DNA of 46,362 nucleotides. It comes from a virus. Taxonomy: Duplodnaviria > Caudoviricetes. The notes under the pieces are model-generated. The model had not been told where the DNA came from, did not search any database, and saw only the letters and a program-made list of their open reading frames with translations. The position numbers and the translations under genes were made by a program. This document shows, piece by piece, positions 335-36,384 of the stretch; within the stretch, counting starts at the first letter, position 1, and each line of letters starts with the position of its first letter. The stretch lies in IMG/VR virus record IMGVR_UViG_3300037722_001735, positions 1 to 46,362 of that record, one strand, 5' to 3'.

Positions 335-810
335 CGCCGCCTGAAACTCTGCGCTGGAACCGCGTCGAGCGCGAGCTGCGCACCGTCCCGGAGCGGCTGG
401 CGATCGCCTGGGGCGAGAACGAGGGTGCCGTGTTCGATCATCTCTGGCGCGCGCGCGGCGACTGGGAGGTCGATGCGGCCGTGGCCGAGGCGTGCCGCCT
501 GCCGCTTGCCGCGGTGCAGGGTGCGGTGCGCCGGCTCAAGCGCGATCTCTATGCCTTCGAGCTCTTCATCGTCAGCTGCTCGCAGAGCCCGATCTACTGG
601 CGGCTCGTGAAGGATCAGTTTGCGTACTCGCCCGCTCGGGCGGGCTCGTATTCGCGAAGCCCGCAAGCGGGCAGCGCGAATGATTTCTCCGCAGGAGCCG
701 GCAAGCCCCGCGGCGAACCGGCCGCGCCGTCCTCCAGCCCCGTTCGCGACCTCGGCGGGGATTCATCGGCGGCGCGGCCGGAAGATTCGGCGCGGAGAAC
801 GCCGACATGA
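331..810 (+). CDS. Hypothetical protein, possible winged-helix N-terminal domain
   Basis: ATG 331 overlaps the cro stop (ATGA); low-complexity C-terminus overlaps the structured element at 627-682. Confidence 0.5.
   Translation: MTPPETLRWNRVERELRTVPERLAIAWGENEGAVFDHLWRARGDWEVDAAVAEACRLPLAAVQGAVRRLKRDLYAFELFIVSCSQSPIYWRLVKDQFAYSPARAGSYSRSPQAGSANDFSAGAGKPRGEPAAPSSSPVRDLGGDSSAARPEDSARRTPT
627..682 (+). ncRNA. Two-hairpin structured element, copy A (put-like candidate)
   Basis: CTC-GCCCGC/tcgg/GCGGGC-TCGT-ATTCGCG-AA-GCCCG/caag/CGGGC region-AG-CGCGAAT; same architecture at 18629, 22836, 36322. Confidence 0.55.
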
Positions 811-1106
811 TCAGGCGCGAAACAAGCGAGGTTGCGATCGGCCTGCGCCTGGTCGGCATGACCGCGCGGCTCGGTCATTCCGCCATCCCGGAAGAAATTG
901 CGAACGAGGCGCGCACCGCGCTCGATGAACTCGATCGCTGCCCCGAAGGGACGGTGCGCACATCCGCCGCGCTCGTGGCGAACTGGCTCATCGGCTTTGC
1001 GACGGCGCAGGGACCCGACGCCCAGGAGTTCGCGGCGCGCACGCTCATCGCCGTGACCGATCGCCTGCGCGAGGCGATGTCGACCGAAGCGGAGAGGGCG
1101 GCCTGA
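807..1106 (+). CDS. Hypothetical protein
   Basis: 99 aa, coupled by overlapping start/stop on both sides. Confidence 0.6.
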   Translation: MIRRETSEVAIGLRLVGMTARLGHSAIPEEIANEARTALDELDRCPEGTVRTSAALVANWLIGFATAQGPDAQEFAARTLIAVTDRLREAMSTEAERAA

Positions 1107-1189
1107 TGGATGTCGTGGCTTTCGCAATGTTTCTCGCGCTTGTGGCCGGGCTCGATCTGCTCGCGCTGAAAGGAATGGTGCGGCGATGA
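1106..1189 (+). CDS. Small hydrophobic peptide (27 aa)
   Basis: MDVVAFAMFLALVAGLDLLALKGMVRR exactly fills the gap with TGATG and ATGA overlaps; below the ORF-track cutoff. Confidence 0.45.
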   Translation: MDVVAFAMFLALVAGLDLLALKGMVRR

Positions 1190-1878
1190 GTCAGTTCGCA
1201 AGGATGACCGCGACCGAGCGCGGCAAGGCGAAGCGCAATCCCTATCTGACAACCGTCACCGGACGCGAGATCGACCTCGTCGCGCCGAAGTGGACGGCGG
1301 TCGATTTCAAGGATGTAGCACACCACCTCGCGCACAATTGCCGTTACGCGGGAGCCTGCCGCCGGACCTATACGGTCGCCGAGCATCTGCTGCGCGGCAT
1401 CGGTCACTGCGCGCCGGAGGTGTTGCCCTTCTGGCTCGCGCACGACGCGCACGAGGCCTTCAGCCAGGACGATGCGACGCCGAAAAAGCAGGCGCTGCCG
1501 ATGGTGATGGAGGCTTGCCTGCGCGGCCAGTTTCCGCTCGCCGATATCGAGAAGTTCAAGCTCGCGATCGAGACGGCGTTCGACGAATTCGAGTTGCGCC
1601 ACATGCGCGCCGTACACGAGGCGGCCGGACTCGGCTGGCCGGTGCCGGAGGACATCCAGCGGGAAGTGAAGACGCTTGATCGCCGGATGCTGGTCACGGA
1701 ATGGCGCGACCTGATGCCCGGCACTCCGCCGCCCGGCTACGAAGACGCGGCGCCTTTCGATGAAAATTTCTCGCAGCCCTTTACCAGCTTCGGGTTCGAG
1801 GCGCTGCGCGACGCGATGCTCGCGGCCTTCGTCATGACCTTTCCGGCGCTGCGCGAAGCCGCGGGCGCCCGATCGTGA
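1186..1878 (+). CDS. HD-domain phosphohydrolase (YfbR/YfdR-like 5'-deoxynucleotidase family)
   Basis: DVAHHLAHNCRYAG, YTVAEH, LAHDAHEAF motifs. Confidence 0.8.
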   Translation: MSQFARMTATERGKAKRNPYLTTVTGREIDLVAPKWTAVDFKDVAHHLAHNCRYAGACRRTYTVAEHLLRGIGHCAPEVLPFWLAHDAHEAFSQDDATPKKQALPMVMEACLRGQFPLADIEKFKLAIETAFDEFELRHMRAVHEAAGLGWPVPEDIQREVKTLDRRMLVTEWRDLMPGTPPPGYEDAAPFDENFSQPFTSFGFEALRDAMLAAFVMTFPALREAAGARS

Positions 1879-2117
1879 GCACCCTCACCAACAACACCTT
1901 CACCGCGCTCGCGGCGGAGATCGCCGCCAAGGCCTCGCGCTGGGCGGGCGATGCCGCGCGCACCATGGAGGCGGGCGCGCCGCAGTCCGGCGTCGTCGCC
2001 GAAAAGACGGCGGAGAAATTCTGCAGCGAGATCGAGGCGCATCTCGATCTCGTGCGCCGCCTCGCACGCACCAAGCCGGACAGCGTCGAACGTTCGATTG
2101 CAAGGAGCGGAAAATGA
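1875..2117 (+). CDS. Hypothetical protein
   Basis: 80 aa, GTGA/ATGA coupled. Confidence 0.55.
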   Translation: MSTLTNNTFTALAAEIAAKASRWAGDAARTMEAGAPQSGVVAEKTAEKFCSEIEAHLDLVRRLARTKPDSVERSIARSGK

Positions 2118-2473
2118 ACGGCGATCAAACCCTTTCCTTCCGGCTGACGCTCGAAGCCGACATGGGCGCGGAAGTCGCGCGGCGCACCGGGCGATGCCGG
2201 GCAAGGGCGCTGGTCAATGCGGCGCTCGTGGCCTTCTGGATTGTCTGGCTGACTTTCCTCGCCGGGCCCCACGTGCCCGCGCTGGTTCTCCTGGCCGCCC
2301 CGGCGCTGATCGCATCCTCCTCCTTCGAGTGCGTGCGCAACGTCCGCAATCTTGTCGACCTGCAGACGTGCTGGACGAAGTGGCTCGACTGCACGGACCA
2401 TATGGATGCGTTCGTCGCGCAGCTCGAACGCTCGCTGATATCGGCCGACGCCGCGCGCGCGAGGTTCTCATGA
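2114..2473 (+). CDS. Hypothetical membrane protein
   Basis: Two hydrophobic segments (ALVNAALVAFWIVWLTFL, VPALVLLAAPALIA); coupled. Confidence 0.6.
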   Translation: MNGDQTLSFRLTLEADMGAEVARRTGRCRARALVNAALVAFWIVWLTFLAGPHVPALVLLAAPALIASSSFECVRNVRNLVDLQTCWTKWLDCTDHMDAFVAQLERSLISADAARARFS

Positions 2474-4263: not shown

Positions 4264-4508
4264 CGAAGTCGAAGGCACTGCGGCTCCTGACGGAAGCGAT
4301 CCATGCGCGGCCCTGTGATCATTGCGCCGTCGCCCTCGGCGCCGAACCGCGCATTCACTACGCGTTCAAGCAATATCACGCGCGCTGTTTCGTGCTGACA
4401 GGCCTGAAGCCGTCGGTCGACGGCGCGACCATTGTCGGGCGGCTGCTCGCGCGCGCACGCGCAGGCCTGCCGCCGCTGCCACCGAACTTTCGAAGCATGC
4501 CGCTCTAG
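4260..4508 (+). CDS. Hypothetical protein
   Basis: 82 aa, ATGA-coupled, CxxC. Confidence 0.5.
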   Translation: MTKSKALRLLTEAIHARPCDHCAVALGAEPRIHYAFKQYHARCFVLTGLKPSVDGATIVGRLLARARAGLPPLPPNFRSMPL

Positions 4509-4568: not shown

Positions 4569-5456
4569 ATGAAGCACATGAAACTGTCGACCGCGGACGC
4601 CGCGTCGATCCTGATCAAGAGCGATGCAAGCCTGCCCGCGTTCAAGGCCGCCGGCCGCGCCACGCTCGTCATCCGCGCGGGCACGTCGATCGCCGGAACG
4701 AAATTCGCAAAGGAAACGCCGGTGCATCTGCCCGGCGATCTGGAGCCGGGCGCCGACTATTGCATCTATCTCGGTGACCGCGTGCCCGCGGCCGGCAAGG
4801 CGGGCGCGCGTGACATCGTCATCGGCGGCTTCCACTTTGCGCCGGGCGGCAATGCGCAAGCGCGAGGCGGCGGTGACACGACGCCGCGCATCAATCCGTG
4901 CTCAATCTACGACCTGAATTTCCGCCCGGCATGTCCCGATCCGCGCGGCATGGCGTTCGTCGAGGCGAAGAATTTCTGGGGCGACATCTATCTGTGCGCC
5001 GCGGACCATCTGGAAGGCGGCACGAGCCAGTTCGGCGTGACGATCGCCGACGGCCGCGATCTTCCGCAGGACCCCGCAGGCGGACGCTTCAGGAAATTCG
5101 ATTACGCCTCCGCCTGCGCGGTGATGAAACACCATGGCAAGGGGCTGATGAGCCCGGACGAATTCGCCGCGGGTGCCTACGGCGTCACCGAAAACTCGGC
5201 GTTCGATACGCGCGCGGCAAAGACCGCGCTCGACGCCGCGCGCACCAGCAAATGGGGCTGGATGCAGGCGACCGGCAACAAGTGGGTCTGGGGCCACGAC
5301 GGCAATCCGGAATCGCCGCGCGCTTCCCTCTTTGGCGGCGCCTGGTTCAACGGCTCGCGCGCGGGCTCGCGCTTCGCGTTCCTCGATACCTGGCCGGGGG
5401 TCTCGCGCGCCAATTTGGGCGCGCGCGGGCGCAGTGACCACCTGCAACCTGTCTAG
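4569..5456 (+). CDS. mtd: DGR target 1, Mtd-like protein with C-type-lectin-fold variable C-terminus
   Basis: GGFHFAPGGNA, FRPACPDPRGM, FWGDIYL, GTSQFGVTIADG, HHGK, TSKWG, LFGGAW, GARGRSDHL match recalled BPP-1 Mtd motifs; contains VR1. Confidence 0.9.
   Translation: MKHMKLSTADAASILIKSDASLPAFKAAGRATLVIRAGTSIAGTKFAKETPVHLPGDLEPGADYCIYLGDRVPAAGKAGARDIVIGGFHFAPGGNAQARGGGDTTPRINPCSIYDLNFRPACPDPRGMAFVEAKNFWGDIYLCAADHLEGGTSQFGVTIADGRDLPQDPAGGRFRKFDYASACAVMKHHGKGLMSPDEFAAGAYGVTENSAFDTRAAKTALDAARTSKWGWMQATGNKWVWGHDGNPESPRASLFGGAWFNGSRAGSRFAFLDTWPGVSRANLGARGRSDHLQPV
5316..5438 (+). repeat. Variable repeat VR1
   Basis: 123-nt ungapped match to TR; 15 mismatches, 14 at TR adenines plus one T>G (5340). 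Confidence 0.95.
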
Positions 5457-5475
5457 CCGCCGCGCAAGCGGCGGC
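5456..5475 (+). promoter_or_regulatory. DGR target-recognition hairpin after VR1/IMH
   Basis: GCCGCCGC-GCAA-GCGGCGGC, perfect 8-bp stem with 4-nt loop at the stop codon. Confidence 0.8.
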
Positions 5476-5511
5476 GGCGATCATCCATCGAAACTTCCGG
5501 AGGCATGACAC

Positions 5512-6423
5512 ATGAACAAACAGACCGACGTCCCGTCCGCGGCCATCGAGCCGCATCTCAAGAAAGCCGATCCCAATCTGCCCGCGCTCGTTGCTACCGG
5601 CGCGGCGGCAATCTCGATCCGCGCCGGCACGATTTTCGCCGGCGTGGCGTTCACTGCCGAAACGCCCGTGCGCATGCCCGGTGAAGGGCTTGAGGCGGGC
5701 GCCGACTATGCCGTCGTGCTGCTGGGCAACGATGCCGCCGCGGTGAAGCTCGATGGAGTGCCGTCGGGGGAAACCTGTCTCGGCGGGTTTCACTTCGCGC
5801 CAGGCGGTAACGCGCAGGGAAAATCGGGCGGTGACGACGCGCCCGCCATCAATCCCTTCTCGCTGTGGGACAGGAATTTTCGCCCGGCATGCCCCGACCC
5901 GCGCGGCATGACGCTGGTCGAAATGGCAAGCGGCGCGAAATTCTGGTGCGACATCTACCTGCTCGCCAAAGAGCACCTTCTGTCGGGCACGTCGAAATTC
6001 GCCGTGACGATCGCCGACGGAGACGACGCGCCGCAGGATCCTTCGGGCGGCGATTTCGATGTGCTCGATTTCGAAACCGCCGTCGCCGTGCTCAAGCATC
6101 ACGGCAAGGGCGTCATGGGCGCCGAGGAATTCTTCGCGGCGGCTTACGGCGTCACGGAGAGAACTGCGGCGGGCAGTGACCCCGAACGCACGGGGCTCGA
6201 TGCCGCACGCACCAGCAAGTGGGGCGTGATGCAGGCGACCGGAAACCTGTGGGTCTGGGGACACGACGGACATCCCGACGACCCGCGCGCTTCCCTCTTT
6301 GGCGGCTCCTGGTTCCACGGCTCGTACGCGGGCTCGCGCTACGCGGACCTCGTTTTCTGGCCGGTGTACTCGCCCGGCCATTTGGGCGCGCGCGGGCGCA
6401 GTGACCACCTGCAACCTGTCTAG
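5512..6423 (+). CDS. mtd: DGR target 2, Mtd-like paralog
   Basis: Same motifs as target 1, identical C-terminus LGARGRSDHLQPV; contains VR2. Confidence 0.9.
   Translation: MNKQTDVPSAAIEPHLKKADPNLPALVATGAAAISIRAGTIFAGVAFTAETPVRMPGEGLEAGADYAVVLLGNDAAAVKLDGVPSGETCLGGFHFAPGGNAQGKSGGDDAPAINPFSLWDRNFRPACPDPRGMTLVEMASGAKFWCDIYLLAKEHLLSGTSKFAVTIADGDDAPQDPSGGDFDVLDFETAVAVLKHHGKGVMGAEEFFAAAYGVTERTAAGSDPERTGLDAARTSKWGVMQATGNLWVWGHDGHPDDPRASLFGGSWFHGSYAGSRYADLVFWPVYSPGHLGARGRSDHLQPV
6283..6405 (+). repeat. Variable repeat VR2
   Basis: 123-nt ungapped match to TR; 14 mismatches, all at TR adenines. Confidence 0.95.
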
Positions 6424-6442
6424 CCGCCGCGCAAGTGGCGGC
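6423..6442 (+). promoter_or_regulatory. DGR target-recognition hairpin after VR2/IMH
   Basis: GCCGCCGC-GCAA-GTGGCGGC, 8-bp stem with one G.T pair. Confidence 0.75.
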
Positions 6443-6504
6443 CCTTTTCGCGGCGGCCCGCCGCGGACTTCGCTCGGCGACGGGTCGCAGGGATCAGACC
6501 AACG

Positions 6505-6915
6505 ATGACGATTGTCAGGGACGAGAACACGCACACCGAGGCACTGGCGATCGTCGAGAAATACGAAGACTTCAGGAATTATATGTATCCGATCCTGCAA
6601 CGCAGTCCGCGCCATCACGGCATCCTCCGGGACGCGGTGATGGCCGAACTGTTTGCGCCGATCGGCGATCTCTATCACGCGGCGAAAACGCGGCAGGTCT
6701 CGCGGCTCTATGTCTGCGACGGTCGGTTCGCGACGCTGCGTTCGCACCTTCGTTTCCTGGTCCGACCCGACATCAGAATCATGAGCCGGCACCAGCACGC
6801 CGCCGCACTGCGGCTGCTGGCCGAGCCGGGGAAGATGCTCGGCGCGTGGATCAAGAAGCTGAAGGCCAGCAAGAATCCGGGCGAGGAAACTCGCCCGGCA
6901 GGGCGAGCGGGGTAA
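6505..6915 (+). CDS. avd: Accessory variability determinant Avd
   Basis: IVEKYE...YMYPILQRSPRHHG, QVSRLY, LRFL, EPGKMLGAWI resemble recalled BPP-1 bAvd; lies between VR and TR. Confidence 0.9.
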   Translation: MTIVRDENTHTEALAIVEKYEDFRNYMYPILQRSPRHHGILRDAVMAELFAPIGDLYHAAKTRQVSRLYVCDGRFATLRSHLRFLVRPDIRIMSRHQHAAALRLLAEPGKMLGAWIKKLKASKNPGEETRPAGRAG

Positions 6916-6923
6916 ATAGCATG

Positions 6924-7046
6924 CCGCGCGCTTCCATCTTTGGCGGCTCCTGGATCAACGGCTCGAACGCGGGCTCGCGCTACGCGAACCTCGATAACTG
7001 GCCGGAGAACTCGAACGACAATTTGGGCGCGCGCGGGCGCAGTGAC
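6924..7046 (+). ncRNA. DGR template repeat (TR)
   Basis: Adenine-rich copy of both VRs (six AAC and one AAT codons); diverges after AGTGAC (GACCGG in TR vs CACCTG in VRs, IMH*/IMH); followed by a spacer to 7295. Confidence 0.95.
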
Positions 7047-7295
7047 GACCGGATTACGACGCGGCGGCGATCACGGTCCCGCCGGTCTTCCCCGTTCGGT
7101 GTGACCATCGCGTCGTCGCGTGAAGCCGCCGAAGGCGGCGGAGGCCGCGACGCTTTGGCAACCGAGATCAGGTGGTCAGCCCGCCCGTCCTGCTTCGGCG
7201 AACACATTTCGCGGTCCGGCAAAACGGGGCGTAGCGGCGCGCATTCTGCGCCGTCGAGACCCGCGGCCGGCAAATTAATTTCAGGCGGATTTTTC

Positions 7296-8300
7296 ATGAC
7301 GAAGCGCTATCGCAATCTCATTGGCTCGATCGTTTCCGACGACAACATGCGCGAGGCCTATCGGCTCACCGCGCGCGCAAAGCGGCTGACACCAGGCTTT
7401 CTCGCCTTCAAGGAATTCGACGCGCTCAATCTTGCCGAGCTCGCGCAGGACATGAGGAGCGGAGCATACCGGCCGGGCAAGTCGAGCGAGTTCTTTATTC
7501 TCGATCCGAAGCGCCGGCTGATCTCGGCGCTGCCGTTCCGCGACCGCGTCGCGCAGCAGGCGCTCTGTCTTGTTGTCGGGCCGCTGTTCGATCGCGCGCT
7601 GCTGCCGCGCTGCTTCGCCTGCCGGCCGGGCAAGGGGACGCATGCCGGCGTGCGCGCGCTGCAGAGCGACCTGCGGCGCCTGGCGGCTGTGGGGCAGCCG
7701 GTCTATTTCCTCAAGACCGACTTCTCGCGCTACTTCGCATCGATCGAGCTGGCCGCGCTGTGGAAACTGATCGAGGCGAAGATCAGTTGCCGCGGTACTT
7801 TGCGTCTCATCGAAAAAATGGTGCCGCGGCAGGGCATCGGCCTGCCGATCGGCAGCCTCACCTCGCAGATCTTCGCCAATCTCTACACGGGCGCTACGCT
7901 CGACCGGCACCTGCAGCAGACGCTCGGCGAGCGATTCTGGTATCGTTACATGGACGACCTCGTGGTGCTCGGCCACGACGCCGCGCATCTTCGGCGGCTC
8001 AAGGATGAGATCGAGCGCTTCTCGCGCGAGCGGCTGTTCCTGCGTTTCTCGAAATGGCAGGTCGCGCCGGTCAGCCGCGGCGTGAATTTTCTGGGCTACC
8101 GAATCTGGGCGACACACAAACTCCTGCGGCGCGACAGTGTCGTGCGCGCACGGCGCAAGATCGCGGCCTACCGTGCGCGCGGCGACCGCGAAAAGCTTGC
8201 CCGCTTCGTCGGCGCCTGGCTCGGCCACGCAAACCACGCCGACAGCCGCAACCTCATCCGGCACCTCGATCTCCATGCCGAGACGGGAGTGCCGGCTTGA
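7296..8300 (+). CDS. DGR reverse transcriptase
   Basis: ATG 7296, 334 aa; PKRRLISALPFRDRVAQQA, GKGTHAG, LKTDFSRYFASI, GLPIGSLTSQIFAN, YRYMDD, FLGY; no maturase or endonuclease extension. Confidence 0.95.
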   Translation: MTKRYRNLIGSIVSDDNMREAYRLTARAKRLTPGFLAFKEFDALNLAELAQDMRSGAYRPGKSSEFFILDPKRRLISALPFRDRVAQQALCLVVGPLFDRALLPRCFACRPGKGTHAGVRALQSDLRRLAAVGQPVYFLKTDFSRYFASIELAALWKLIEAKISCRGTLRLIEKMVPRQGIGLPIGSLTSQIFANLYTGATLDRHLQQTLGERFWYRYMDDLVVLGHDAAHLRRLKDEIERFSRERLFLRFSKWQVAPVSRGVNFLGYRIWATHKLLRRDSVVRARRKIAAYRARGDREKLARFVGAWLGHANHADSRNLIRHLDLHAETGVPA

Positions 8301-14116: not shown

Positions 14117-14941
14117 ATGCCCAAAGCCGAAATCGACATCGAGCGCCTGCTTTCCTGGACCTATCGCGACGAGCTGCCGAAGCAGCGTTTCGCCCTCGAT
14201 GGCGCGTCGATCTCGTCGAGTTATGAAAACGTGATGGCCTACGGTGCCATGGGCGGGATCGATATCGATGAAAGCCCGCGCCTGCCGGCGGCGCTCGGCG
14301 CGCCGCATCCCGACGCCTTTGTGGTCGAGGCGGCGGTGCGTGCGCTGATGGCCGTGAAGATTGAGTGGGATACGAACGGCCGCGCGCTCATGGGCGACTT
14401 CGCCGATCTTGTCATCCCTCATGCGCGGCTGTGCTTCTGGTCCGCCGACATGGAGCCGCTCGTCGTCATGCACGCACGCATGGGCACGCGGCCCGACTGG
14501 CGGCACGAGCCGTTCGAATGTGTGCGCATGCAGGATGAGACCGGACGCAACGGCAAGGCGATCGTGGTCGGGCGCGATCCGGCGACCCATCGCTATGTGC
14601 GTGAACCGGACGCGCATGGTGCCTATGCGCGTTGCCCGCTGGTGTGGAAGCCGGATCCGGCCATGGTCGCCGAGGCGCGCATGGAATATGCCGCCTGGCA
14701 CGCCGGGCTTTGCGAGCTTGCCGAATCACTCGGGACCGATTCGCTCTCCGCGCATGTCGCGCTGCCGCCCGCTTGCTCGGCGGAGCCTTGGCTCACGCCC
14801 GATCCACAGGTGAATATTCTCGACGGCGGAACGGCGGGAAAGCCGCAGCCCGCCGCGCGTTCCGCGCGGGCGCGCATGCTCGCGCCGCTGTCGCGCGGGC
14901 AGCATGGTCCGGTGCGCCACTTGACTGCGCGAGGAACTTGA
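14117..14941 (+). CDS. Phage protein in the late-regulator (Q-like) position
   Basis: 274 aa, GGAG RBS; function inferred from position only. Confidence 0.55.
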   Translation: MPKAEIDIERLLSWTYRDELPKQRFALDGASISSSYENVMAYGAMGGIDIDESPRLPAALGAPHPDAFVVEAAVRALMAVKIEWDTNGRALMGDFADLVIPHARLCFWSADMEPLVVMHARMGTRPDWRHEPFECVRMQDETGRNGKAIVVGRDPATHRYVREPDAHGAYARCPLVWKPDPAMVAEARMEYAAWHAGLCELAESLGTDSLSAHVALPPACSAEPWLTPDPQVNILDGGTAGKPQPAARSARARMLAPLSRGQHGPVRHLTARGT

Positions 14942-16699: not shown

Positions 16700-18628
16700 A
16701 TGACGATTCAGATCGCCAATGCCGAGCGCCTGGCGATGGAAGCCGGCGCCCGCGCGATCGAACCGCCCGCGCCGGTCGACTATCTGAAATGGGCCGAAGA
16801 CAACATCGTCTTCACCGAACGCGAGAGCCAGTTCGCGGGCTCCTATAACCGCGCGCTGTTTCCCTATCTCGACGAGCCGCTGCGCGCACTTTCGCCCGAC
16901 GACCCGTGCCGCATCGTCACGATCTGCGGCTCCGCCCAGGTCGGCAAGACCGTCGTCGGCAACGTCTTCACGCTCGGCTCCATGGCGATGGACCCCGGCG
17001 ACTTTCTCTACACGCACCCGACCGAGGAGAACGCGCGGCGCTGGTCGAAGATGAAACTCGCGCCGATGCTGCGCAACACGACGGCACTCGCGCCGCTGTT
17101 TCCGCGCAAGTCGCGCGACGGCTCCGATTCGGTGCTCTACAAGGAACGACGCGACGGCCTCGGCGCGATCCTGATCTCGGGCGCAAATTCCCCGGCGTCG
17201 TTGTCGCAGGTGACGATGCGCCGGCAGGCGCAGGACGATCTCTCGAAATGGGAGATGAACCTCGCGGGCGACCCCGAGGCGCAGGCCGATGCCCGCTCGC
17301 GCGGCGTCGTCTTCGCGAAGATTTTGAAATTGTCGACGCCGCTCGTGATGCCGGGCTGCCGCATCACGAAAAGCCTCGAGGCGGGAAGCCAGGAGTATCT
17401 CTACGTCCCGTGCCCGCACTGCAACCACATGCAGGTTCTCGAATTCGAGAACATGCTGGTGCATCTCGACGCCGACAAGCCGGAAGCCGCGCACTTCACC
17501 TGCACCGGCTGCGGCGCGGAGATCCTCGAACATCACCGCGGCCAGATGCTCAAGCGCCACGAGTGGCGCGCGCACAACGAAAAGGCGAAGCGCTATCACC
17601 GATCGTTTTACATGTGGTCGGCCTATTCGTTCCTGCAGACGTGGGAACAGATCGCGCGCGAATGGTTCAAGGCCAAGGGCGACTCGTCCGCCGAGCAGAC
17701 CTTCTGGAACGATACGGTCGGCCGTGCCTATCGCGCGCAGTCGGAGGCGCCGCCCTGGGAGGTGCTGCGCGACCGCGCCGCGCAGTCCGATTACAACAAG
17801 GGCGAGATTCCGCCCGGTGCGCTTGTGCTGTTTCTCGGCATCGACTGCCAGGGAGACCGCGTCGAGTGGCAGATCGTGGGCTTCGGCCGCGACTTCCGCC
17901 GCTGCCCGGTCGACTATGGCGTGATCCCGGGGCACATCACGGACAAGACCTGTCAGGAACGGCTGTCGGCGCTGCTCTCGCAGACCTGGCCGAACAGGTT
18001 TGGGCGCAGGATCGGCATCGAGCTCGCCGCGATCGACGGCAATGCCTACACGGAAGATGTCTGGGACTGGGCGCGCAAGCACCCGAAGTCGAAGCTGATC
18101 ATGGTGCGCGGCGCCAGCACCGACAGCGCGCCGCGCATCGCCCGCGTCAAGCGCGAGAGGAACGAGAAGACCGGCAAGATCCTGCGCTACGCGAGCCGCT
18201 TCTACACGTTCAACACGTCGATCCTGAAAATGTCGCTCTATCGCGATCTCGCGAAGGACGATCCGCTCGCGCGCGGCTACGTCGCGCTGCCCAAGGGACT
18301 TGAGGACGAATACTTCCGCCAGCTCACGGCGGAGCGTCGGAAGGCGCACAAGCGCTGGGGCTTCACCGTCTACCGCTGGGAAAAGGACCCCGGCCAGGCG
18401 AACGAAGCGCTCGATACGTTCCTGCAGGCGGAAGCGGCTTCGACCAAGTTCGGCCTGCGCGGCCTGCCCGACGCGATCTGGGACCGCTACGAGAAGGAAC
18501 GCGAGACGCCGGCCGATCCCGCGCAGGGCGACCTCGAGGAACTGATCGCGCGCGCTCCGGCGGCCAAGGCCGAGACGCCGAAGGCGGCGGGCAAAGGGCT
18601 CGACGCGCTGAAAGGTCTTAATCAGTAA
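16700..18628 (+). CDS. Terminase large subunit (lambda gpA family)
   Basis: SAQVGKT Walker A, STP, YVPCPHC, GIDCQ, NEALD. Confidence 0.95.
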   Translation: MTIQIANAERLAMEAGARAIEPPAPVDYLKWAEDNIVFTERESQFAGSYNRALFPYLDEPLRALSPDDPCRIVTICGSAQVGKTVVGNVFTLGSMAMDPGDFLYTHPTEENARRWSKMKLAPMLRNTTALAPLFPRKSRDGSDSVLYKERRDGLGAILISGANSPASLSQVTMRRQAQDDLSKWEMNLAGDPEAQADARSRGVVFAKILKLSTPLVMPGCRITKSLEAGSQEYLYVPCPHCNHMQVLEFENMLVHLDADKPEAAHFTCTGCGAEILEHHRGQMLKRHEWRAHNEKAKRYHRSFYMWSAYSFLQTWEQIAREWFKAKGDSSAEQTFWNDTVGRAYRAQSEAPPWEVLRDRAAQSDYNKGEIPPGALVLFLGIDCQGDRVEWQIVGFGRDFRRCPVDYGVIPGHITDKTCQERLSALLSQTWPNRFGRRIGIELAAIDGNAYTEDVWDWARKHPKSKLIMVRGASTDSAPRIARVKRERNEKTGKILRYASRFYTFNTSILKMSLYRDLAKDDPLARGYVALPKGLEDEYFRQLTAERRKAHKRWGFTVYRWEKDPGQANEALDTFLQAEAASTKFGLRGLPDAIWDRYEKERETPADPAQGDLEELIARAPAAKAETPKAAGKGLDALKGLNQ

Positions 18629-18681
18629 CTCGCCGCTTCGCGGCTCGTGTTCGCGAATGCGCTAACGCGCACGCGCGAACG
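18629..18681 (+). ncRNA. Two-hairpin structured element, copy B
   Basis: CTC-GCCGC/ttc/GCGGC-TCGT-GTTCGCG-AA-TGCGC/taac/GCGCA-CG-CGCGAAC, directly after the terL stop. Confidence 0.55.
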
Positions 18682-18703
18682 GATTTCAGATTCCGGAGAC
18701 GCC

Positions 18704-18946
18704 ATGGCTCTCACCGTCGTGCAGATCGACGAAAAGATCACCGCGCTGGAAAGCGCGAAGACGTCGCGGCTGACGGGCGAGCAGCGCAAGCGCGTCGGCT
18801 ATGAACGCGGCCAGGTCGAGTTCGCCGACGTGACGATCGAGGAGATCAATCTCGAATTGTTGCGTCTCAGGGCCGAGCGCCAGCGGCTCACGGGCGAATA
18901 TGCCGGCGTCGGTCCGATCCGCGTCGGCTTCGGGAGCAGGCCATGA
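18704..18946 (+). CDS. gpW-like head completion protein
   Basis: GGAG RBS and ATG 18704; small, between terL and portal. Confidence 0.75.
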   Translation: MALTVVQIDEKITALESAKTSRLTGEQRKRVGYERGQVEFADVTIEEINLELLRLRAERQRLTGEYAGVGPIRVGFGSRP

Positions 18947-22428: not shown

Positions 22429-22827
22429 ATGCAATCCTTTACGGTCAATGCGCCGCGCACCATCACGGACGTGCTGCGCTATGAAGTGCATCCCAATTAC
22501 ACCCGCGAGCAGGAATCCTTCGCGGGTCATGGCGGCTCGGAAGAAAACGAGGCGCACGACATCGGCACGGTCCTCGGCAAGATCACCGAGGGCGGCGCCG
22601 TCGTCCCGCTCAATACCGCCGCGAACGACGGCAGCCAGACCGCCTATGGCGTTCTGCTGCAGAAGGTCGTGACCGCGGCCGATGCCGTGCCGTGCCTCGT
22701 GCTCGAACGCGGCCCCGCCGAGGTCGTGTTGTCCGGTCTGATCTGGCCGGATGCCATTTCCGACAACAACAAGGCGACGGCCCTCACGTCGCTGCTCGCG
22801 AAGGGCATCAAGGCGCGCGCCGACTGA
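22429..22827 (+). CDS. Head decoration protein (gpD-like)
   Basis: GTVLGKIT, DGSQTAYGVL, LIWP; directly before the capsid gene. Confidence 0.85.
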   Translation: MQSFTVNAPRTITDVLRYEVHPNYTREQESFAGHGGSEENEAHDIGTVLGKITEGGAVVPLNTAANDGSQTAYGVLLQKVVTAADAVPCLVLERGPAEVVLSGLIWPDAISDNNKATALTSLLAKGIKARAD

Positions 22828-22835
22828 TAGGCGCG

Positions 22836-22890
22836 CTCGCGGCGTTCCGCCGCTCGCGTGCGCGAATGGTCTGAATGCCACGCGCGCACG
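22836..22890 (+). ncRNA. Two-hairpin structured element, copy C
   Basis: CTC-GCGGCG/ttc/CGCCGC-TCGC-GTGCGCG-AA-TGG/loop/CCA-CG-CGCGCAC. Confidence 0.55.
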
Positions 22891-23006: not shown

Positions 23007-24071
23007 ATGGACCCCGAGAACTTCAATTTTCCCTACACGTCGACGGACCTCACCGAGCAGGTGAACCGCATCCCGAACAGCTTCGGCCTGCTGCAGGCCA
23101 TGGGGCTGTTTTCGTCCGAAGGTATCGCTTCGACGGTCGTCGAGGTGCGCATGGAGGACGGTATCCTGCGCGTGCTCCCGGCCAAGGAGCGCGGCGCGCC
23201 GGCGGCGGAAGGCGGCCGCGAACCCGGCAAGACGCTGTTCTTCAAGGTGCCGCACTTCCCGCATAAGGACACGATCCTGCCGCAGGACATCCAGAACATG
23301 CTGGTCCTGGTTGCCCGCTCGAAGCAGCCGGAAACCGTCGACAATCTGATGGCGAAGCGGCTCAACACGCTGCGCAACAACCATGCGATCACGCGCGAAT
23401 ATCTGCGCATGGGCGCGCTCAAGGGCCTGATCAAGGACGGCGACGGCACCACGGTCTACAACCTCTTTACCGAATTCAATATCGTGAAGAAGGAAGTGGA
23501 CTTCCTGCTCGGCACCGCCGGCACCAAAGTCATCGACAAATGCGAAGAGGTCTACGACCACGTGCTGAAGAACCTCAAGGGCGAGGTGTCCTCGGGCGTG
23601 GCCGTGATCGTGTCCTCGGGCTTCTTCAGCGCTCTGGTCCAGCACGCCAATGTCAAGGTGCACTGGCAGAACTTCCAGATCAGCAACGGGCCGGGCGCAT
23701 GGTCTGTCGCCAACATGAATCGCGACACCCGCGGTGGCAACTGGGGCCGGACGTTCGAGTTCGGGAACCTGCGCTTCCTCGAATACAAGGGTACGTTTCC
23801 GGTCAAGGCAAACGCGCAGTCTGCACTCGCCAGTGTCGATGCCGTCGCCGCCGGCTACGGCCATGCCTTCCCACTCGGCACGATGAACACCTTCAACACC
23901 TTCGATGCGCCGGCCGACACGATGGACGCGGCGAACAAGCCCGGCAACGAGGTCTTCATCTCGCCCAAGGAGCTCGACCACAACAAGGGCGTGGAACTCT
24001 GGACCGAGTCGAACCCGCTCGCGATCTGCAAGCGGCCTGAAGTGCTCGTCGAAGTCCGGACGTCCAACTAA
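23007..24071 (+). CDS. Major capsid protein (lambda gpE family)
   Basis: GAGG RBS and ATG 23007; PHFPHKDTI, TREYLRMGALKG, ESNPLAICKRP. Confidence 0.92.
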   Translation: MDPENFNFPYTSTDLTEQVNRIPNSFGLLQAMGLFSSEGIASTVVEVRMEDGILRVLPAKERGAPAAEGGREPGKTLFFKVPHFPHKDTILPQDIQNMLVLVARSKQPETVDNLMAKRLNTLRNNHAITREYLRMGALKGLIKDGDGTTVYNLFTEFNIVKKEVDFLLGTAGTKVIDKCEEVYDHVLKNLKGEVSSGVAVIVSSGFFSALVQHANVKVHWQNFQISNGPGAWSVANMNRDTRGGNWGRTFEFGNLRFLEYKGTFPVKANAQSALASVDAVAAGYGHAFPLGTMNTFNTFDAPADTMDAANKPGNEVFISPKELDHNKGVELWTESNPLAICKRPEVLVEVRTSN

Positions 24072-24092
24072 GCGACCCACCAACAAACAAAG

Positions 24093-24126
24093 AGCCCGCG
24101 CGGTGCGAGCCGCGCGGGTTTACTTT
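24093..24126 (+). terminator. Rho-independent terminator after the capsid gene
   Basis: GCCCGCGCGG...CCGCGCGGGT stem followed by TTACTTT. Confidence 0.65.
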
Positions 24127-24152
24127 CGCCTGAAGCTGCGAGGCCGACCGTC

Positions 24153-24476: not shown

Positions 24477-25393
24477 TGAAAATCCGGTGCCTCGACGACA
24501 CCCATGTGCGCGTGCGCTGGGGCCGCGCCATCCAGGCGGCGGCGTCGGCGCGCGGCTGGGATGCGCGTCTGTTCACACGCGCCGAGGAAGTCGACGGCGG
24601 TTACGCGTTCCTGCGGATCGAGCAGCAACCCCCGCGGCTACAGGAGCACAAGGCGGTCGCGGATGCGCTGCTTGCGTGCGGCGGCGTGCGCGTGATTCCG
24701 GGCGCGCGGCAGATACGGTGGTACGAGGACAAGTGTGCGCAGGCGGCGGACCTCGGTGCCTACATGCCGCTGACCCGGCTCTGCTACGGCATGGAAGATG
24801 TAGAGTCCGCGATCGCCGCGCTCGGTTTTCCGCTTGTCAGCAAGTCGAGCGAGGGATCGAGCTGCGCGAACGTGCGCCTGGTGAAGGATCGCGCGGAAGC
24901 GCTGGCGGAAGCGCGCGCCGCTTTCGGCGGGGAGGGAATCCCCATGCGGCTCGGCGGGCGCGCGCACCGGCAGGCGGGTTATCTGCTCTGGCAGCAGTTC
25001 CTCGCGGGCAACGATTATATGTACCGCGTCGGCGTCTGCGGCCGTTTCAAATGGATGTTCCGCGAGGGCAACCGGCCGGGACTTCCCTTCGCGTCGGGCT
25101 CCGGCCTTTACACGCCGGTCGAGCGGCTTGCGGGCGAAACGGCGGCGCTGTTCGAGGCGGCCGGGCGCTACTGCCTTGAGACGGGCGAGACCTGGGCGGG
25201 GCTCGATTTTGCCCGCGACCCGGCGACCGGCGAATGGAAACTGCTGGAGACGACGCTCGCCTGGGGCATGGCGCACCCCGGAAGCACGCTCGGTTGCGTC
25301 CTGTTCGACGCGCAGGGAAATCCGACGGCACGCCGCGGCGACCGGTTGTGGGATGCGTTGCTCGACGAGATCGAAGCAGGAGTGTTCGGATGA
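24476..25393 (+). CDS. ATP-grasp ligase (RimK-like)
   Basis: YEDK, GFPLVSKSSEGSS..NVRLV, WQQFL, RV, ASGSG, GLDF, KLLET. Confidence 0.75.
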   Translation: MKIRCLDDTHVRVRWGRAIQAAASARGWDARLFTRAEEVDGGYAFLRIEQQPPRLQEHKAVADALLACGGVRVIPGARQIRWYEDKCAQAADLGAYMPLTRLCYGMEDVESAIAALGFPLVSKSSEGSSCANVRLVKDRAEALAEARAAFGGEGIPMRLGGRAHRQAGYLLWQQFLAGNDYMYRVGVCGRFKWMFREGNRPGLPFASGSGLYTPVERLAGETAALFEAAGRYCLETGETWAGLDFARDPATGEWKLLETTLAWGMAHPGSTLGCVLFDAQGNPTARRGDRLWDALLDEIEAGVFG

Positions 25394-25977
25394 CCTTGCC
25401 CGAAGACGGCAACCGCTATGCGCAAATCGACCGCTTCCGCGGGCTGCGCTCCGTGCAGCGTTTCGAGATGCTCGCCTTTCTCGTCTGGCGCAACGGCTGG
25501 AAGACCGGCGCGGAGCTTGGCGTGCATCTCGGCACGACCTCCGAATACCTGCTGAAGCATTTTCCCGATCTCTCGCTGGTCGGCGTCGACTTCTTCGGCT
25601 ATCCGCCGCACGAGGTCTTCGGTCCGGCGCGTCCGAGCGCGGTGCACGAAGAGAAGCGCGCGAAGGTCGAGGCGATATACGCGCAATACGGCACGCGCGC
25701 GCGGCTGATCGCCAAGCCGACACATGAGGCGGCGGCGGAAGTCGCGGCGGGTTCGCTCGACTTCATCTTCGTCGATGCCGATCACCGCTACGAGTCGGTC
25801 AAGGACGACATCGCTCGCTGGATGCCGAAGCTGAAACCTTCGGGCTGGATGATCGGCCACGACTATCTTGAGCATTTCGACGGTGTGTTCCGCGCCGTCA
25901 ACGAGGCGTTCGGCGGCAGGCATTTCGCGCTGCCGAAGACATTGTGGGCCGTGCGCCGGGACATGAGCGGGTGCTGA
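25390..25977 (+). CDS. Class I SAM methyltransferase (Methyltransf_24-like)
   Basis: GAELGVHLG, VGVD, LDFIFVDADHRYESVKDDI, GWMIGHDY. Confidence 0.85.
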   Translation: MTLPEDGNRYAQIDRFRGLRSVQRFEMLAFLVWRNGWKTGAELGVHLGTTSEYLLKHFPDLSLVGVDFFGYPPHEVFGPARPSAVHEEKRAKVEAIYAQYGTRARLIAKPTHEAAAEVAAGSLDFIFVDADHRYESVKDDIARWMPKLKPSGWMIGHDYLEHFDGVFRAVNEAFGGRHFALPKTLWAVRRDMSGC

Positions 25978-26687
25978 CCGTCTGCACCTTCAAGTGGCGG
26001 CGCGAAGGCTACCGCTCGCAGTTCACCGCCGATCACGTCAACCGGTTGCGCGCCATGTTCGCGCGTCATCTGCGCCTGCCGCACCGCTTCGTTTGCGTAA
26101 CGGACGATACCGCCGGGCTCGACCGCCGCGTCGAGGCGGTCCCGCTCTGGCCGGATCACGCCGAGGTGCCGAATCCGACCGGGGCGCATCTGCCAAGCTG
26201 TTACCGGCGCCTCAAGCTGTTCTCGCACGAGGCCCGCGCGCTCGTGGGCGAGCGTATCTGGTTGATCGATCTCGATGTCGTGCTGACCCGCGACGTGACG
26301 CCGCTCGCCGACCGGCCGGAAGACGTCGTGCTGTTGCCGACGCCCGACCCGCGCGTGCCTTACAACGGCAGTCTTGTGCTGCTGACACCGGGCGCGCGGT
26401 CTTTTGTCTGGGACGACTTCGACCCGCGCATCTCGCCGAAGAAAACCCACGACGCCGGGCTGCACGGTTCGGATCAGGGCTGGATGTCCTATTGCCTGCG
26501 CGGCCGCGGCGAAGCCGAGTGGAAAATCGGACCGGGCGGCGACGGCATCTATTTCTACCGGCGGCACATTCGGCCATCGGGCGGCGCGCTGCCGGAAGAC
26601 GCCCGGATCGTGTCGTTCAATGGAGGCACCGATCCCTGGTCGCCCGAGGCGCAACGGCTCGCCTGGGTGCAGGCCCATTACCGGTAA
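25971..26687 (+). CDS. Glycosyltransferase (GT-A, DxD) paralog 1
   Basis: VCTFKW, FVCVTD, RLKLF, LIDLDVV, YNGS, SDQ, G..DPW. Confidence 0.8.
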   Translation: MLTVCTFKWRREGYRSQFTADHVNRLRAMFARHLRLPHRFVCVTDDTAGLDRRVEAVPLWPDHAEVPNPTGAHLPSCYRRLKLFSHEARALVGERIWLIDLDVVLTRDVTPLADRPEDVVLLPTPDPRVPYNGSLVLLTPGARSFVWDDFDPRISPKKTHDAGLHGSDQGWMSYCLRGRGEAEWKIGPGGDGIYFYRRHIRPSGGALPEDARIVSFNGGTDPWSPEAQRLAWVQAHYR

Positions 26688-26694
26688 CGTGTGA

Positions 26695-27423
26695 ATGCTG
26701 CACCTGATCCTGTGGAAGTGGACCGCGGCCTATCGCGACCGCTTCACCGCCGAGCATGTGAATATCGCCGCCGCCATGGTGCGGCGGCATTATCCGGACC
26801 AGCTTCGCATCGTTTGCGTAACCGACGACCCTGCGGGAGTCGAATGCGAGACCGTGCCCCTCTGGGATGACGGCAACGGCCTGCACAATGCAAGCGGTGT
26901 GCATCTGCCGAGCTGCTACCGGCGGCTCAAGCTGTTTGCGCGCGACATTCACCATACGCTCGGCTGCGCGCCGGGCGATCCGTTGGTTTCGCTCGACCTC
27001 GACATGGTCGTGACCGGCGGTCTGGGTCCGCTGTGGAATCCGCATGTAAAGAGTGGTGCACCCTTCGTCGGCTGGCTGCGCAAGGGCTCCTATCACGCGC
27101 GCGTTTATAACGGGTCGATGTGGCTCGTGCGCGCGGGTGCGCTGCCGCAGATATGGGAAGAATTCGACCCGGCATCTTCCCCGCTCGCGGCCAAGATGCA
27201 GGGTTATCTCGGCTCGGACCAGGCGTGGATGTCCTGGAAGCTCGGGCCCGGCCGGCCGTGCTGGACCGACAAGGACGGCGTCTATCATTTCGCGCAGGAC
27301 GTGCGGGCGCAACACAGGCTGCCCCAGGGCGCGCGCCTCGTGATCTTCTGCGGCCAGCGCAAGCCTTGGCATGCCGAGGTTCAGGCGACGGATCCGTGGG
27401 TCAAGGAATATTATCATGCCTAA
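26695..27423 (+). CDS. Glycosyltransferase (GT-A, DxD) paralog 2
   Basis: VCVTD, HLPSCYRRLKLF shared with paralog 1, SLDLDMV, YNGS, SDQ, KPW. Confidence 0.8.
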   Translation: MLHLILWKWTAAYRDRFTAEHVNIAAAMVRRHYPDQLRIVCVTDDPAGVECETVPLWDDGNGLHNASGVHLPSCYRRLKLFARDIHHTLGCAPGDPLVSLDLDMVVTGGLGPLWNPHVKSGAPFVGWLRKGSYHARVYNGSMWLVRAGALPQIWEEFDPASSPLAAKMQGYLGSDQAWMSWKLGPGRPCWTDKDGVYHFAQDVRAQHRLPQGARLVIFCGQRKPWHAEVQATDPWVKEYYHA

Positions 27424-34841: not shown

Positions 34842-34842
34842 C

Positions 34843-35778
34843 ATGGTGCTTCCGACGCCGACGCGTGCCTTTCCCCGCAAGGATTGGGCGGGAAATGCGA
34901 TTGCCGATTTCAAGACCTATGCCGATCATATCGCGGTGCGGGGCGAGAAGCTGTTTGCGATGGTGCCGAACCGCCTCACCGTCGCGGGCGGCTCGGCGGA
35001 CGCGATCGAGGCGAGCTGCGATCCGCCTCTGCTCACCGATCCGGTGGACGGACAGCTCTTCCGGCTGCTGGCCGCGGCTCAGAACACCGGCAACGTCACG
35101 ATCGACATCGACGGGCGTGGGGCGATCTCGGCGCGCGACTACGCGGGCAACAACTTCGCCGAGGGCTCCTACGAGGCGGGCGAGGAGCTGGAATTCAGGT
35201 ACGACGGCACGGCGTCGCAACTCTGGCTCACGCATCGCACTCTGTCGCAGCAGGTGGCCGCGGCCGCCGCGGCCGTGGGCCTGCAATCGCCGCTGGAGCG
35301 GTTCGGCGATTCCGGCCTGATCGCCGGCACGCCGTCGCAGGTCGAGTTCACCTTTACGGCCGGGCGCTATGTGGCGATCGACCTGTTTATCAGCGACGTA
35401 CGGCCGACGGCGGACGGAGCCTCCCTCACCGTCACCCTGCGAAACTCGTCTGGCGCGATACTTACCCTCAACACCTCTGTCAGTGTCGGCAACGCGTCGA
35501 GCGAAGGTATTTCGCTGGGTGCGCAGTTCGTGATCGGCACCGTATTCCCAACCAAGGGTCACTACGGGTCCCTGGTCGGTAAATACACGAACACCTCCGC
35601 GAATCACTTCAAATATGGCGTGGGACTGACGACGGACGGCGGCGGCGCGAGCGAAACGGTGCCGCTGGCCGTGGCCGGCGCGGACGAATCCGCGCCTGAC
35701 CGCGTCCGGTTCGCGTTCAATTCCGGCAACATACAGGAGGGGCGGATCGTGGCGGACGGACGCCTGGCGGAGTTCTGA
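34843..35778 (+). CDS. Tail fibre / receptor-binding-like protein
   Basis: NTGNVTIDIDG motif, position, compositionally distinct C-terminus. Confidence 0.6.
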   Translation: MVLPTPTRAFPRKDWAGNAIADFKTYADHIAVRGEKLFAMVPNRLTVAGGSADAIEASCDPPLLTDPVDGQLFRLLAAAQNTGNVTIDIDGRGAISARDYAGNNFAEGSYEAGEELEFRYDGTASQLWLTHRTLSQQVAAAAAAVGLQSPLERFGDSGLIAGTPSQVEFTFTAGRYVAIDLFISDVRPTADGASLTVTLRNSSGAILTLNTSVSVGNASSEGISLGAQFVIGTVFPTKGHYGSLVGKYTNTSANHFKYGVGLTTDGGGASETVPLAVAGADESAPDRVRFAFNSGNIQEGRIVADGRLAEF

Positions 35779-35779
35779 C

Positions 35780-35938
35780 GTGAAGAAGATCGTCAATGTC
35801 ATCGACTCCAAAACCGGTGCGCCATTGCGCGACCCGAAGAGCGGGAAGCTGCTTCGCCGTGAAGTCGCGATGACCGCGAAGGAAGTCGCGGCCTTCGAGG
35901 CGGAGCGGGCAGCACAGCAGGGAGGCAGCAAGCAATGA
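35780..35938 (+). CDS. Small protein (52 aa), possible fibre chaperone
   Basis: GTG-start ORF exactly filling the gap. Confidence 0.45.
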   Translation: MKKIVNVIDSKTGAPLRDPKSGKLLRREVAMTAKEVAAFEAERAAQQGGSKQ

Positions 35939-36315
35939 GCAAGTCGATTCTCGACGCCGCGTCGCGCGCCGATCTCGTCATCAACACAAAGGCGGGCCGC
36001 GCCTTCCCGTTCGTATTCGAAGACGAGAACGGCGATGCGGTCGACTTCACCGGATCGACCTTCCGCCTGCAGGTGAAGGCGTGGAACGGAAATGCCGCGA
36101 CCGGCAGCGCCCTACTTACGCTCACGACCGGCGATGGCATTGAGGGCGACGTTGCGGACGGCGAGTGCCAGCCGGTATTTCCGCCGGCGGCCGACGAGGG
36201 ACTCGCCGTCGGGCAATATGTCTATGACATCATGCGGCTGGAAAGCGGCGAGCCGGTCGAGACCGTGCAGGTCGGTCTGATCGATGCCGTTGACGGCGTG
36301 ACGGAGGAAGCATGA
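35935..36315 (+). CDS. Acidic tail-associated Ig/BppU-like protein
   Basis: VDFTGSTFRLQVK, GQYVYDI. Confidence 0.55.
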   Translation: MSKSILDAASRADLVINTKAGRAFPFVFEDENGDAVDFTGSTFRLQVKAWNGNAATGSALLTLTTGDGIEGDVADGECQPVFPPAADEGLAVGQYVYDIMRLESGEPVETVQVGLIDAVDGVTEEA

Positions 36316-36321
36316 TGCGCG

Positions 36322-36384
36322 CTCGCCGCTTCGCTGACCGCTCGCGGCTCGTGTTAGCGAATGGCCCAAGGGCCAAGCGCGAAC
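36322..36384 (+). ncRNA. Two-hairpin structured element, copy D
   Basis: CTC-GCCGC/14-nt loop/GCGGC-TCGT-GTTAGCG-AA-TGGCC/caag/GGCCA-AG-CGCGAAC. Confidence 0.5.

What the first reader, a model, noticed from the sequence alone, without database searches (positions are those of the whole stretch)
627..36384. Four dispersed copies of a two-hairpin element with compensatory base changes (put-like RNA candidate)
Seen at 627-682, 18629-18681, 22836-22890 and 36322-36384, all in the transcribed orientation: CTC-[stem 1]-TCGY-[stem 2a]-AA-[stem 2b]-(A/C)G-[stem 2a']. Stem 2a covaries: ATTCGCG/CGCGAAT, GTTCGCG/CGCGAAC, GTGCGCG/CGCGCAC, and GTTAGCG/CGCGAAC (one mismatch). Stem 1 covaries (GCCCGC/GCGGGC, GCCGC/GCGGC, GCGGCG/CGCCGC). 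Stem 2b differs in sequence but stays paired. The linkers and the AA side of the 2x2 internal loop are conserved; a flanking U.G / U.G / C-G pair favours a plus-strand RNA. Three copies directly follow stop codons; one lies about 300 nt after the cro-like gene. Established: HK022 put RNAs are two-stem antiterminators, with putR downstream of cro. Inference: an unannotated cis-acting RNA for antitermination, processing or protein binding, reiterated along a roughly 45-kb transcription path. No N-like gene was recognised.
Basis: partly seen in the sequence, partly recalled or inferred. Interest (0 to 1): 0.8.

Follow-up and report, generated by a model that had tools for sequence, protein, structure and literature searches.

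The report
New bacterial hairpin repeat in phage
The four hairpin elements in this soil-bacterium-type phage are real, and their main hairpin is an uncatalogued short repeat also scattered through some bacterial chromosomes, so they are likely mobile REP-like repeats parked at gene ends, not the polymerase-binding antitermination RNA first proposed.

Summary
The four copies are real (4 matches, 0 in 100 shuffles) and fold as described. A related phage contig has two more, one at a site that is empty here and in an outgroup. Corrections: copy 1 lies inside a called gene (331-810); copy 4's flanking pair is a mismatch; the record lacks its left arm, so 'no N gene' says nothing. There is no Rfam match and no likeness to HK022 putL/putR. 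The decisive result: the core of hairpin 2 (CGAA, 6-bp stem, AA, partner stem, AG or CG, CG) recurs in chromosomes of one Rhizobiales family (15 of 151 genomes, 37 matches against 2 for the reversed control). There it sits at gene ends, in frame inside genes, and inverted inside the loop of another copy, usually behind a T-run. That is REP/BIME-like behaviour, with a REP-like AA bulge, but without a GTAG/CGTC foot or a linked Y1 transposase, and at only 1-11 copies per genome. The extra first hairpin was seen only in the two phages. Best reading: a new REP-like mobile hairpin, likely kept at phage gene ends as an mRNA hairpin. Put-like antitermination is unlikely but not excluded.

The parts
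627..681 (+). Copy 1: CTC, stem 1 (630-645), TCG linker, hairpin 2 (650-681); inside the 3' tail of ORF 331-810
18629..18680 (+). Copy 2: directly after the terminase large subunit stop codon, 23 bases before the small gene preceding the portal
22836..22889 (+). Copy 3: between head decoration and major capsid genes; the same site is occupied in relative L333 (764-830)
36322..36384 (+). Copy 4: between ORF 35935-36315 and ORF 36404-37390; long stem-1 loop; its 22-base core (36358-36379) is identical to chromosomal copies in G098 and G897
331..810 (+). Early ORF (159 aa) after the cro-like gene; homologues of 123-164 aa share the first ~100-115 residues and differ in the tail that holds copy 1
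59..334 (+). cro-like HTH gene; copy 1 starts 293 bases after it
14117..14941 (+). ORF at the position of a late antiterminator; predicted fold weakly resembles sigma region 4 and a Q protein (Z 4.5, rmsd 7.7, 116 aligned); a lead only
16700..18628 (+). Terminase large subunit, upstream of copy 2
22429..22827 (+). Head decoration gene, upstream of copy 3
23007..24071 (+). Major capsid protein
24072..24152 (+). Empty site after the capsid gene (hairpin plus T-rich tail); L333 has a copy here (1979-2032), the outgroup L370 has none

Best explanation
The four elements are copies of an uncatalogued short hairpin repeat whose core also lies scattered through chromosomes of one Rhizobiales family; it likely spreads REP-fashion as folded single-stranded DNA, and in this phage lineage it likely persists at gene ends as a co-transcribed mRNA hairpin that shields or delimits the upstream message. 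Shown: the structure, its covariation, the chromosomal copies, their varied and nested positions, the T-run in front of them, the filled and empty phage sites, and the extra first hairpin seen only in the two phages. Inferred: mobility through a HUH (Y1-type) or similar enzyme of the host that reads the AA/(A,C)G bulge and inserts the unit 3' of T-rich sequence; uptake by a resident prophage; later duplication of the two-hairpin form within the phage lineage; and any effect on mRNA ends.
For: Hairpin-2 model finds 11 matches in G098, some identical to the cores of copy 4 and L333b. Strict core pattern: 15 of 151 genomes of that family, 37 matches against 2 for the reversed control; by eye 35 of the 37 pair at all three free positions. 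In five carrier genomes a looser pattern gives 28 matches, 0 control. Thirty phage and chromosomal cores align without gaps; 11 of 13 pairs change on both sides, 0 of 500 shuffles reach it. Contexts differ: between ABC permease genes, after flgH, between convergent genes, three in tandem in frame inside a phage lysozyme gene, in frame near the start of a prophage phosphohydrolase-like ORF, and inverted inside another copy's loop (L492, L536, L543, L545, L554 within one larger element, and L560 apart from them). TTT lies within 14 bases upstream in 31 of 43 chromosomal cores, downstream in 3 of 43 (the 43 are not independent). The post-capsid site is filled in L333 and empty in the window and in L370. 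[quoted passage not shown] The loop-closing pair switches between C-G (20) and T-A (8) around AA, which reads CTTG/TTTA on the other strand, two-residue loops typical of DNA hairpins (recalled).
Against: No GTAG, GTGG or CGTC foot. No Y1 transposase in the provirus, in G098 or in 4 of 5 other carriers; the one weak hit, in G830, has no core in its 3.3-kb locus. Copy numbers are 1-11 per genome, not hundreds. Orientation is biased to sense: 6 of 6 phage copies; by eye about 7 unambiguous chromosomal sites sense and 2 antisense, many ambiguous. The full two-hairpin form was found in 0 of 43 chromosomal cores, and its CTC and TCG single strands are invariant in 6 of 6 phage copies, which a simple exonuclease barrier does not need. 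The true host chromosome is not held, so uptake from it is untested. The direction of gain at the post-capsid site rests on one outgroup. No expression data.
Confidence: 0.55

Rival explanations
1. A dedicated RNA signal: the hairpin is a binding or cleavage module for a host RNA-binding protein or nuclease, and the phage uses the two-hairpin form to cut or segment its long transcripts, as T7 does with RNase III sites (recalled). Copies arise by ordinary duplication and are kept by selection, without a mobilising enzyme.
For: 6 of 6 phage copies sense; invariant unpaired bases and a fixed 40-column length of hairpin 2; 3 U.G cells in the phage alignment; copies flank the capsid gene in L333; sense bias and in-frame sense copies in chromosomes.
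Against: Intact inverted copies nested in another copy's loop; wobbles in chromosomal upper stems do not favour the + strand (1 G.U against 3 A.C); patchy presence, with none in the phage relatives at 68% capsid identity or less; the 13-15 pair hairpin is short for RNase III (recalled).
Confidence: 0.22
2. A put-like antiterminator: the nascent two-stem RNA binds RNA polymerase and makes it resistant to terminators, reloaded at several points of the genome.
For: Two adjacent stems of 52-67 bases with an A-rich non-canonical loop in the second, as in put stem II (PMC9378689); copy 1 is 293 bases past the cro-like gene; L333b sits just upstream of a strong hairpin; the first hairpin is specific to the phages.
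Against: No likeness to putL/putR: best 5 of 200 shuffles among 18 comparisons, and no model hit on HK022; stem 1 varies from 13 to 28 bases whereas put stem I carries polymerase contacts; no copy behind the presumed late promoter; copy 1 inside an ORF; core is a chromosomal repeat in both orientations; a weak Q-like candidate exists.
Confidence: 0.1
3. Tolerated passengers: mobile hairpins that land after stop codons or in dispensable protein tails and do nothing for the phage; the conservation reflects only what the mobilising enzyme needs.
For: Filled and empty sites; copies in variable protein tails and N-termini; most relatives manage without.
Against: Copy 3 and L333a hold the same site in phages only 73% identical in DNA, diverged with pairing kept; strict sense orientation.
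Confidence: 0.1
4. A small self-cleaving ribozyme of a new class.
For: Invariant unpaired bases and dispersed intergenic copies.
Against: No Rfam match; no pseudoknot or third helix seen; chromosomal cores lack the first hairpin; in-frame copies inside genes would cut their own messages.
Confidence: 0.03

Closest known systems
E. coli REP/BIME (group 2 REPs of TnpA-REP)
   Same: Hairpin-bulge-hairpin of about 30-36 bases with AA on the 5' side of a 2x2 mismatch (AA-GC in E. coli, PMC8266576); dispersed; near gene 3' ends; built into mosaics.
   Different: 3' side of the bulge is AG or CG; no GTAG foot, a T-run in front instead; 1-11 copies per genome; inverted nesting in the loop, not spaced inverted pairs; no linked Y1 gene found.
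CGTC-tagged REPs of alphaproteobacteria (PMC3733652)
   Same: Same host class; small palindromes downstream of genes, some inside genes.
   Different: No CGTC/TGTC/CCTC end; those have plain 8-9 bp stems with 4-5 base loops, mostly as head-to-head dimers.
HK022 putL/putR
   Same: Two neighbouring stems, similar overall size, A-rich non-canonical pairs in the second stem, one copy downstream of cro.
   Different: No sequence likeness; variable first stem; three-base linker; most copies deep in late genes; AA lies on the opposite strand of the loop; core is a chromosomal repeat.
IS200/IS605 end hairpins
   Same: Imperfect hairpin next to a fixed 5' flank, the pattern expected of single-strand transposition (PMC6006769 passages; T-rich targets recalled).
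   Different: No transposase gene or second end found with any copy examined.
PeSL cassettes of T4-type phages (PMC2839356, search listing only)
   Same: Dispersed stem-loop cassettes at gene boundaries of a phage lineage.
   Different: PeSLs carry a promoter; the sigma-70 scan found none at these copies, and this core also occurs in chromosomes.

Membership tests
HK022 put RNA | Sequence likeness to putL/putR | tested here: not met
   on the HK022 record
HK022 put RNA | Two adjacent stem-loops, about 70 bases | tested here: met
   two stems, 52-67 bases
HK022 put RNA | One site near each early promoter (putR about 270 bases from PR) | tested here: not met
   copy 1 about 600 bases into the record and inside an ORF; three copies in late genes; left arm missing, so a putL analogue could not be looked for
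HK022 put RNA | Binds the beta' zinc-binding domain and suppresses termination without a phage protein | not testable with these tools
   needs transcription assays
REP (GTAG or CGTC families) | GTAG/GTGG or CGTC tetranucleotide at the hairpin foot | tested here: not met
   TCGY in the phages, T-runs in chromosomes
REP (GTAG or CGTC families) | 20-50 base imperfect palindrome with conserved bulge | tested here: met
   definition from PMC8266576
REP (GTAG or CGTC families) | Dispersed in chromosomes, mostly between genes, forming mosaics | tested here: met
REP (GTAG or CGTC families) | High copy number (hundreds per genome) | tested here: not met
   1-8, 3-9, 11 per genome; patterns are strict and genomes may be incomplete
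REP (GTAG or CGTC families) | Cognate TnpA-REP (Y1) gene flanked by the repeat | tested here: inconclusive
   none in G000, G098 or 4 of 5 more carriers; one weak hit without nearby core; genomes may be incomplete
Any Rfam 15 family | Match to a covariance model | tested here: not met
   window at gathering score and to E 10; 20 and 7 chromosomal loci

The most novel reading that the evidence does not exclude
A new class of T-targeted mobile hairpin, moved by an enzyme other than the known REP transposases, has been domesticated by one phage lineage: by adding a first hairpin it became a reusable RNA signal that controls read-through or processing along the whole genome, a traceable origin of a put-like or processing RNA from a mobile repeat.
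Probability: 0.15. Interest if true: 0.8.

Novelty: new variant of a known kind. Interest (0 to 1): 0.48.

Why it matters
Known REP families are defined by GTAG or CGTC feet and a cognate Y1 transposase. This repeat has the REP bulge but neither of those, sits behind T-runs, nests inverted in its own loop and enters genes in frame, so it may point to another mobilising enzyme in alphaproteobacteria. A phage lineage carries an extended form at gene ends, which gives a small, testable case of a mobile repeat turning into a regulatory RNA part. It also warns that covariation and one orientation within a single phage do not by themselves make an antiterminator.

Tried and rejected
Searches with the full two-hairpin consensus found nothing outside the two phages. 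Viral contigs: 9 of 9 hits unstructured; 119 hits from 9 of 64 parts, none convincing; 5 and 30 hits with other patterns, none. Genome contigs: 120 hits from 36 of 64 parts, none with both hairpins. 401 genomes of the order: 2 unstructured hits; 401 of the class: 4 hits, control 4; 22 genomes of another family: none. These patterns needed the phage linker or lower stem and so missed the chromosomal core, which only the hairpin-2 model found. In 301 genomes of the order only G098 has paired cores; 7 other hits do not pair. 84 terminase- or capsid-related loci: best 15 bits, and that one lies in terminase coding sequence. 82 of the 107 new capsid-related loci were scanned (short ones and duplicates left out): only L333. 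L440 (33 bits) overlaps a permease gene end, rejected. BLAST against annotated phages and plasmids: chance hits only. No RNA holder listed. Laying the source run on copy 1 and on L333b showed no pile-up of other contigs, but missed known copies, so it is uninformative. ORF 14117-14941 is not like the NusG-type gene of phi2LM21. HDV-like ribozyme, attC, kink-turn and CRISPR-repeat mimicry were considered by eye from recalled consensus features and dropped. Literature: three core motifs typed as terms gave 0 papers; two searches for phage structured-RNA surveys gave 0; a RIME search gave 6 listings that I did not read, so RIME consensus sequences were not compared. The put alignment of PMC9378689 is in a supplement I could not see. 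Earlier scan notes held no look-alike; the word search gave only other repeat families.
Full report
What the window is. A lambda-like provirus, 46,362 bases, 66% G+C, 73% complete by the record's estimate. Genes run rightwards from a cro-like HTH gene (59-334) through early genes, a diversity-generating retroelement, replication, terminase, portal, protease, decoration, capsid, tail and lysis genes. No repressor or integrase appeared among the 65 ORFs scanned, so the left arm is probably outside the record. Named capsid relatives come from Devosia and other Rhizobiales.

The four copies are at 627-681, 18629-18680, 22836-22889 and 36322-36384, all on the + strand. A consensus pattern finds 4 matches and none in 100 shuffles; a model built from them finds nothing else above 16 bits in the window. 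Each folds into two hairpins, on either strand and as RNA or DNA with similar energies. Three copies begin 0-6 bases after a stop codon. Copy 1, however, lies inside ORF 331-810, a called gene; a 93-94% identical relative reads into the element too, and four distant homologues of 123-164 aa have unrelated tails there. The flanking pair quoted as strand evidence is a mismatch in copy 4.

A related phage has it. Among capsid-related loci, only L333, a 2.3-kb contig with 74% capsid identity, scored (2 hits, 56 and 67 bits, of 82 loci scanned). One copy is at the site of copy 3; the other follows the capsid stop codon, where the window and the next relative L370 (68%) have only a short spacer and a terminator-like hairpin. 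One gain in L333 is the simplest reading. In the six copies hairpin 2 aligns over 40 columns without gaps; 8 of 14 pairs change on both sides, none of 500 shuffles reaching that (related sequences can beat such shuffles, but the slid controls fall to 21-55% paired). Stem 1 varies from 13 to 28 bases between invariant CTC and TCG.

Not put. From PMC9378689 (whole-text parts 1-3 of 9): putL and putR are about 70 bases, near the early promoters, act over at least 10 kb, and contact polymerase through both stems, with a triplex in stem I. On the HK022 record local alignments to the put regions were at chance level (best 5 of 200 shuffles in 18 comparisons) and the model found nothing. Three copies lie deep in late genes, and none follows ORF 14117-14941, which sits where a late antiterminator would and whose predicted fold (pLDDT 81) weakly resembles sigma region 4 and a Q protein (Z 4.5, rmsd 7.7, 116 aligned; Foldseek found nothing). 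That is only a lead. Rfam has no match.

The core is a chromosomal repeat. Patterns holding the phage linker failed everywhere (see Tried and rejected). A model of hairpin 2 alone, run on 150 Rhizobiales genomes, found 11 matches in G098 and one weak match in G153. They keep CGAA, a 6-pair stem around AA, then AG or CG and CG, and several equal the cores of copy 4 or L333b letter for letter. A strict core pattern hits 15 of 151 genomes of that family, 37 matches against 2 for the reversed control; in 301 genomes of the order only G098 had paired matches, so the repeat belongs to a sub-lineage. Thirty cores from phages and chromosomes (chosen from about 49 for distinct sequence) give 11 of 13 pairs with changes on both sides; the pattern fixed part of the stem, so the free positions carry the weight.

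How the chromosomal copies sit (orientation read by eye). Just after a permease gene in three genomes; after flgH; directly after a psiE-family stop codon; between convergent genes; three in tandem, in frame, in the start of a phage lysozyme gene; in frame near the start of a prophage phosphohydrolase-like ORF; twice within a larger shared element of roughly 500-650 bases that lies beside unrelated genes; and inverted inside the loop of another copy, in five instances of that element with differing inner sequences and once apart from them (L560). A TTT lies within 14 bases upstream of 31 of 43 cores and downstream of 3. None of the 43 has the phage linker. About 7 unambiguous sites are sense and 2 antisense. 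Copy numbers are low: 1-11 per genome.

Mechanism. Patchy presence, filled and empty sites, in-frame entry into genes, nesting in both orientations and a fixed T-rich 5' flank are what a small mobile hairpin gives. The anatomy is that of E. coli REPs, whose stem is broken by a conserved AA-GC mismatch that TnpA-REP needs (PMC8266576, passages); the single-strand transposases choose sites through a short sequence 5' of the hairpin (PMC6006769, passages); REPs lie near the 3' end of upstream genes and are thought to act as RNA (PMC3733652, passages). The loop-closing pair alternates C-G and T-A around AA, giving CTTG or TTTA on the other strand, loops I recall as typical of DNA hairpins. I therefore infer spread as folded single-stranded DNA, uptake by a prophage, addition of the first hairpin, and retention at gene ends as an mRNA hairpin. 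Against this: no GTAG or CGTC foot, no Y1 gene in the provirus, G098 or four of five other carriers, low copy number, a sense bias, and invariant single strands in the phage form that a plain barrier would not need. These keep a dedicated RNA signal (0.22) and put-like action (0.10) alive. Nothing here shows expression or function; no RNA run was listed.

Verdict. Real, uncatalogued as far as Rfam 15 and my paper searches reach (RIME consensus not compared), and best filed as a new variant of the REP-like dispersed hairpin repeats. It works like a REP in anatomy and placement but fails membership of the GTAG and CGTC families, and it is not a put RNA. The open and interesting points are the unknown mobiliser and the phage-specific two-hairpin form.

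Noticed in passing
window 4569-8300: Diversity-generating retroelement with two target genes in tandem (4569-5456, 5512-6423), Avd (6505-6915), template repeat near 6923-7050, Rfam Phage_DGR RNA (7129-7271) and reverse transcriptase, placed among the early genes; each target is followed by a GCAA-loop hairpin.
   Followed up: no
L554:1100-1800; also L486, L490, L492, L534, L536, L543, L544, L545: A larger shared element of roughly 500-650 bases, 69-90% alike in pieces, in at least four genomes (G098, G846, G897, G937) beside unrelated genes, holding two or more cores; no Rfam match. Could be a MITE-like unit or a new large structured RNA; worth its own study.
   Followed up: partly
window 14117-14941: Family of about 35 uncharacterised proteins at the Q position with a weak sigma-4/Q-like predicted fold; phi2LM21 has a NusG-type gene at the same place.
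   Followed up: partly
L530:1365-1560: Three tandem cores in frame at the start of a phage lysozyme gene in G824.
   Followed up: partly
L529, L533, L538, L541, L548: The core lies between two near-identical copies of a 25-30 base flanking sequence, as if the site had been duplicated around it.
   Followed up: no
window 18628-18704: The terminase/head junction holding copy 2 is a module boundary: relatives share either the terminase (about 70%) or the head genes (50-65%), rarely both.
   Followed up: partly
window 25234-27423 and 37719-41600: Methyltransferase-like and two glycosyltransferase genes among head-tail genes, and PhoD-like and lectin-like genes among tail genes.
   Followed up: no
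window 45717-46362: HigBA-like toxin-antitoxin pair on the minus strand at the right end.
   Followed up: no
window 10-80: Inverted repeats upstream of the cro-like gene that look like operators.
   Followed up: no
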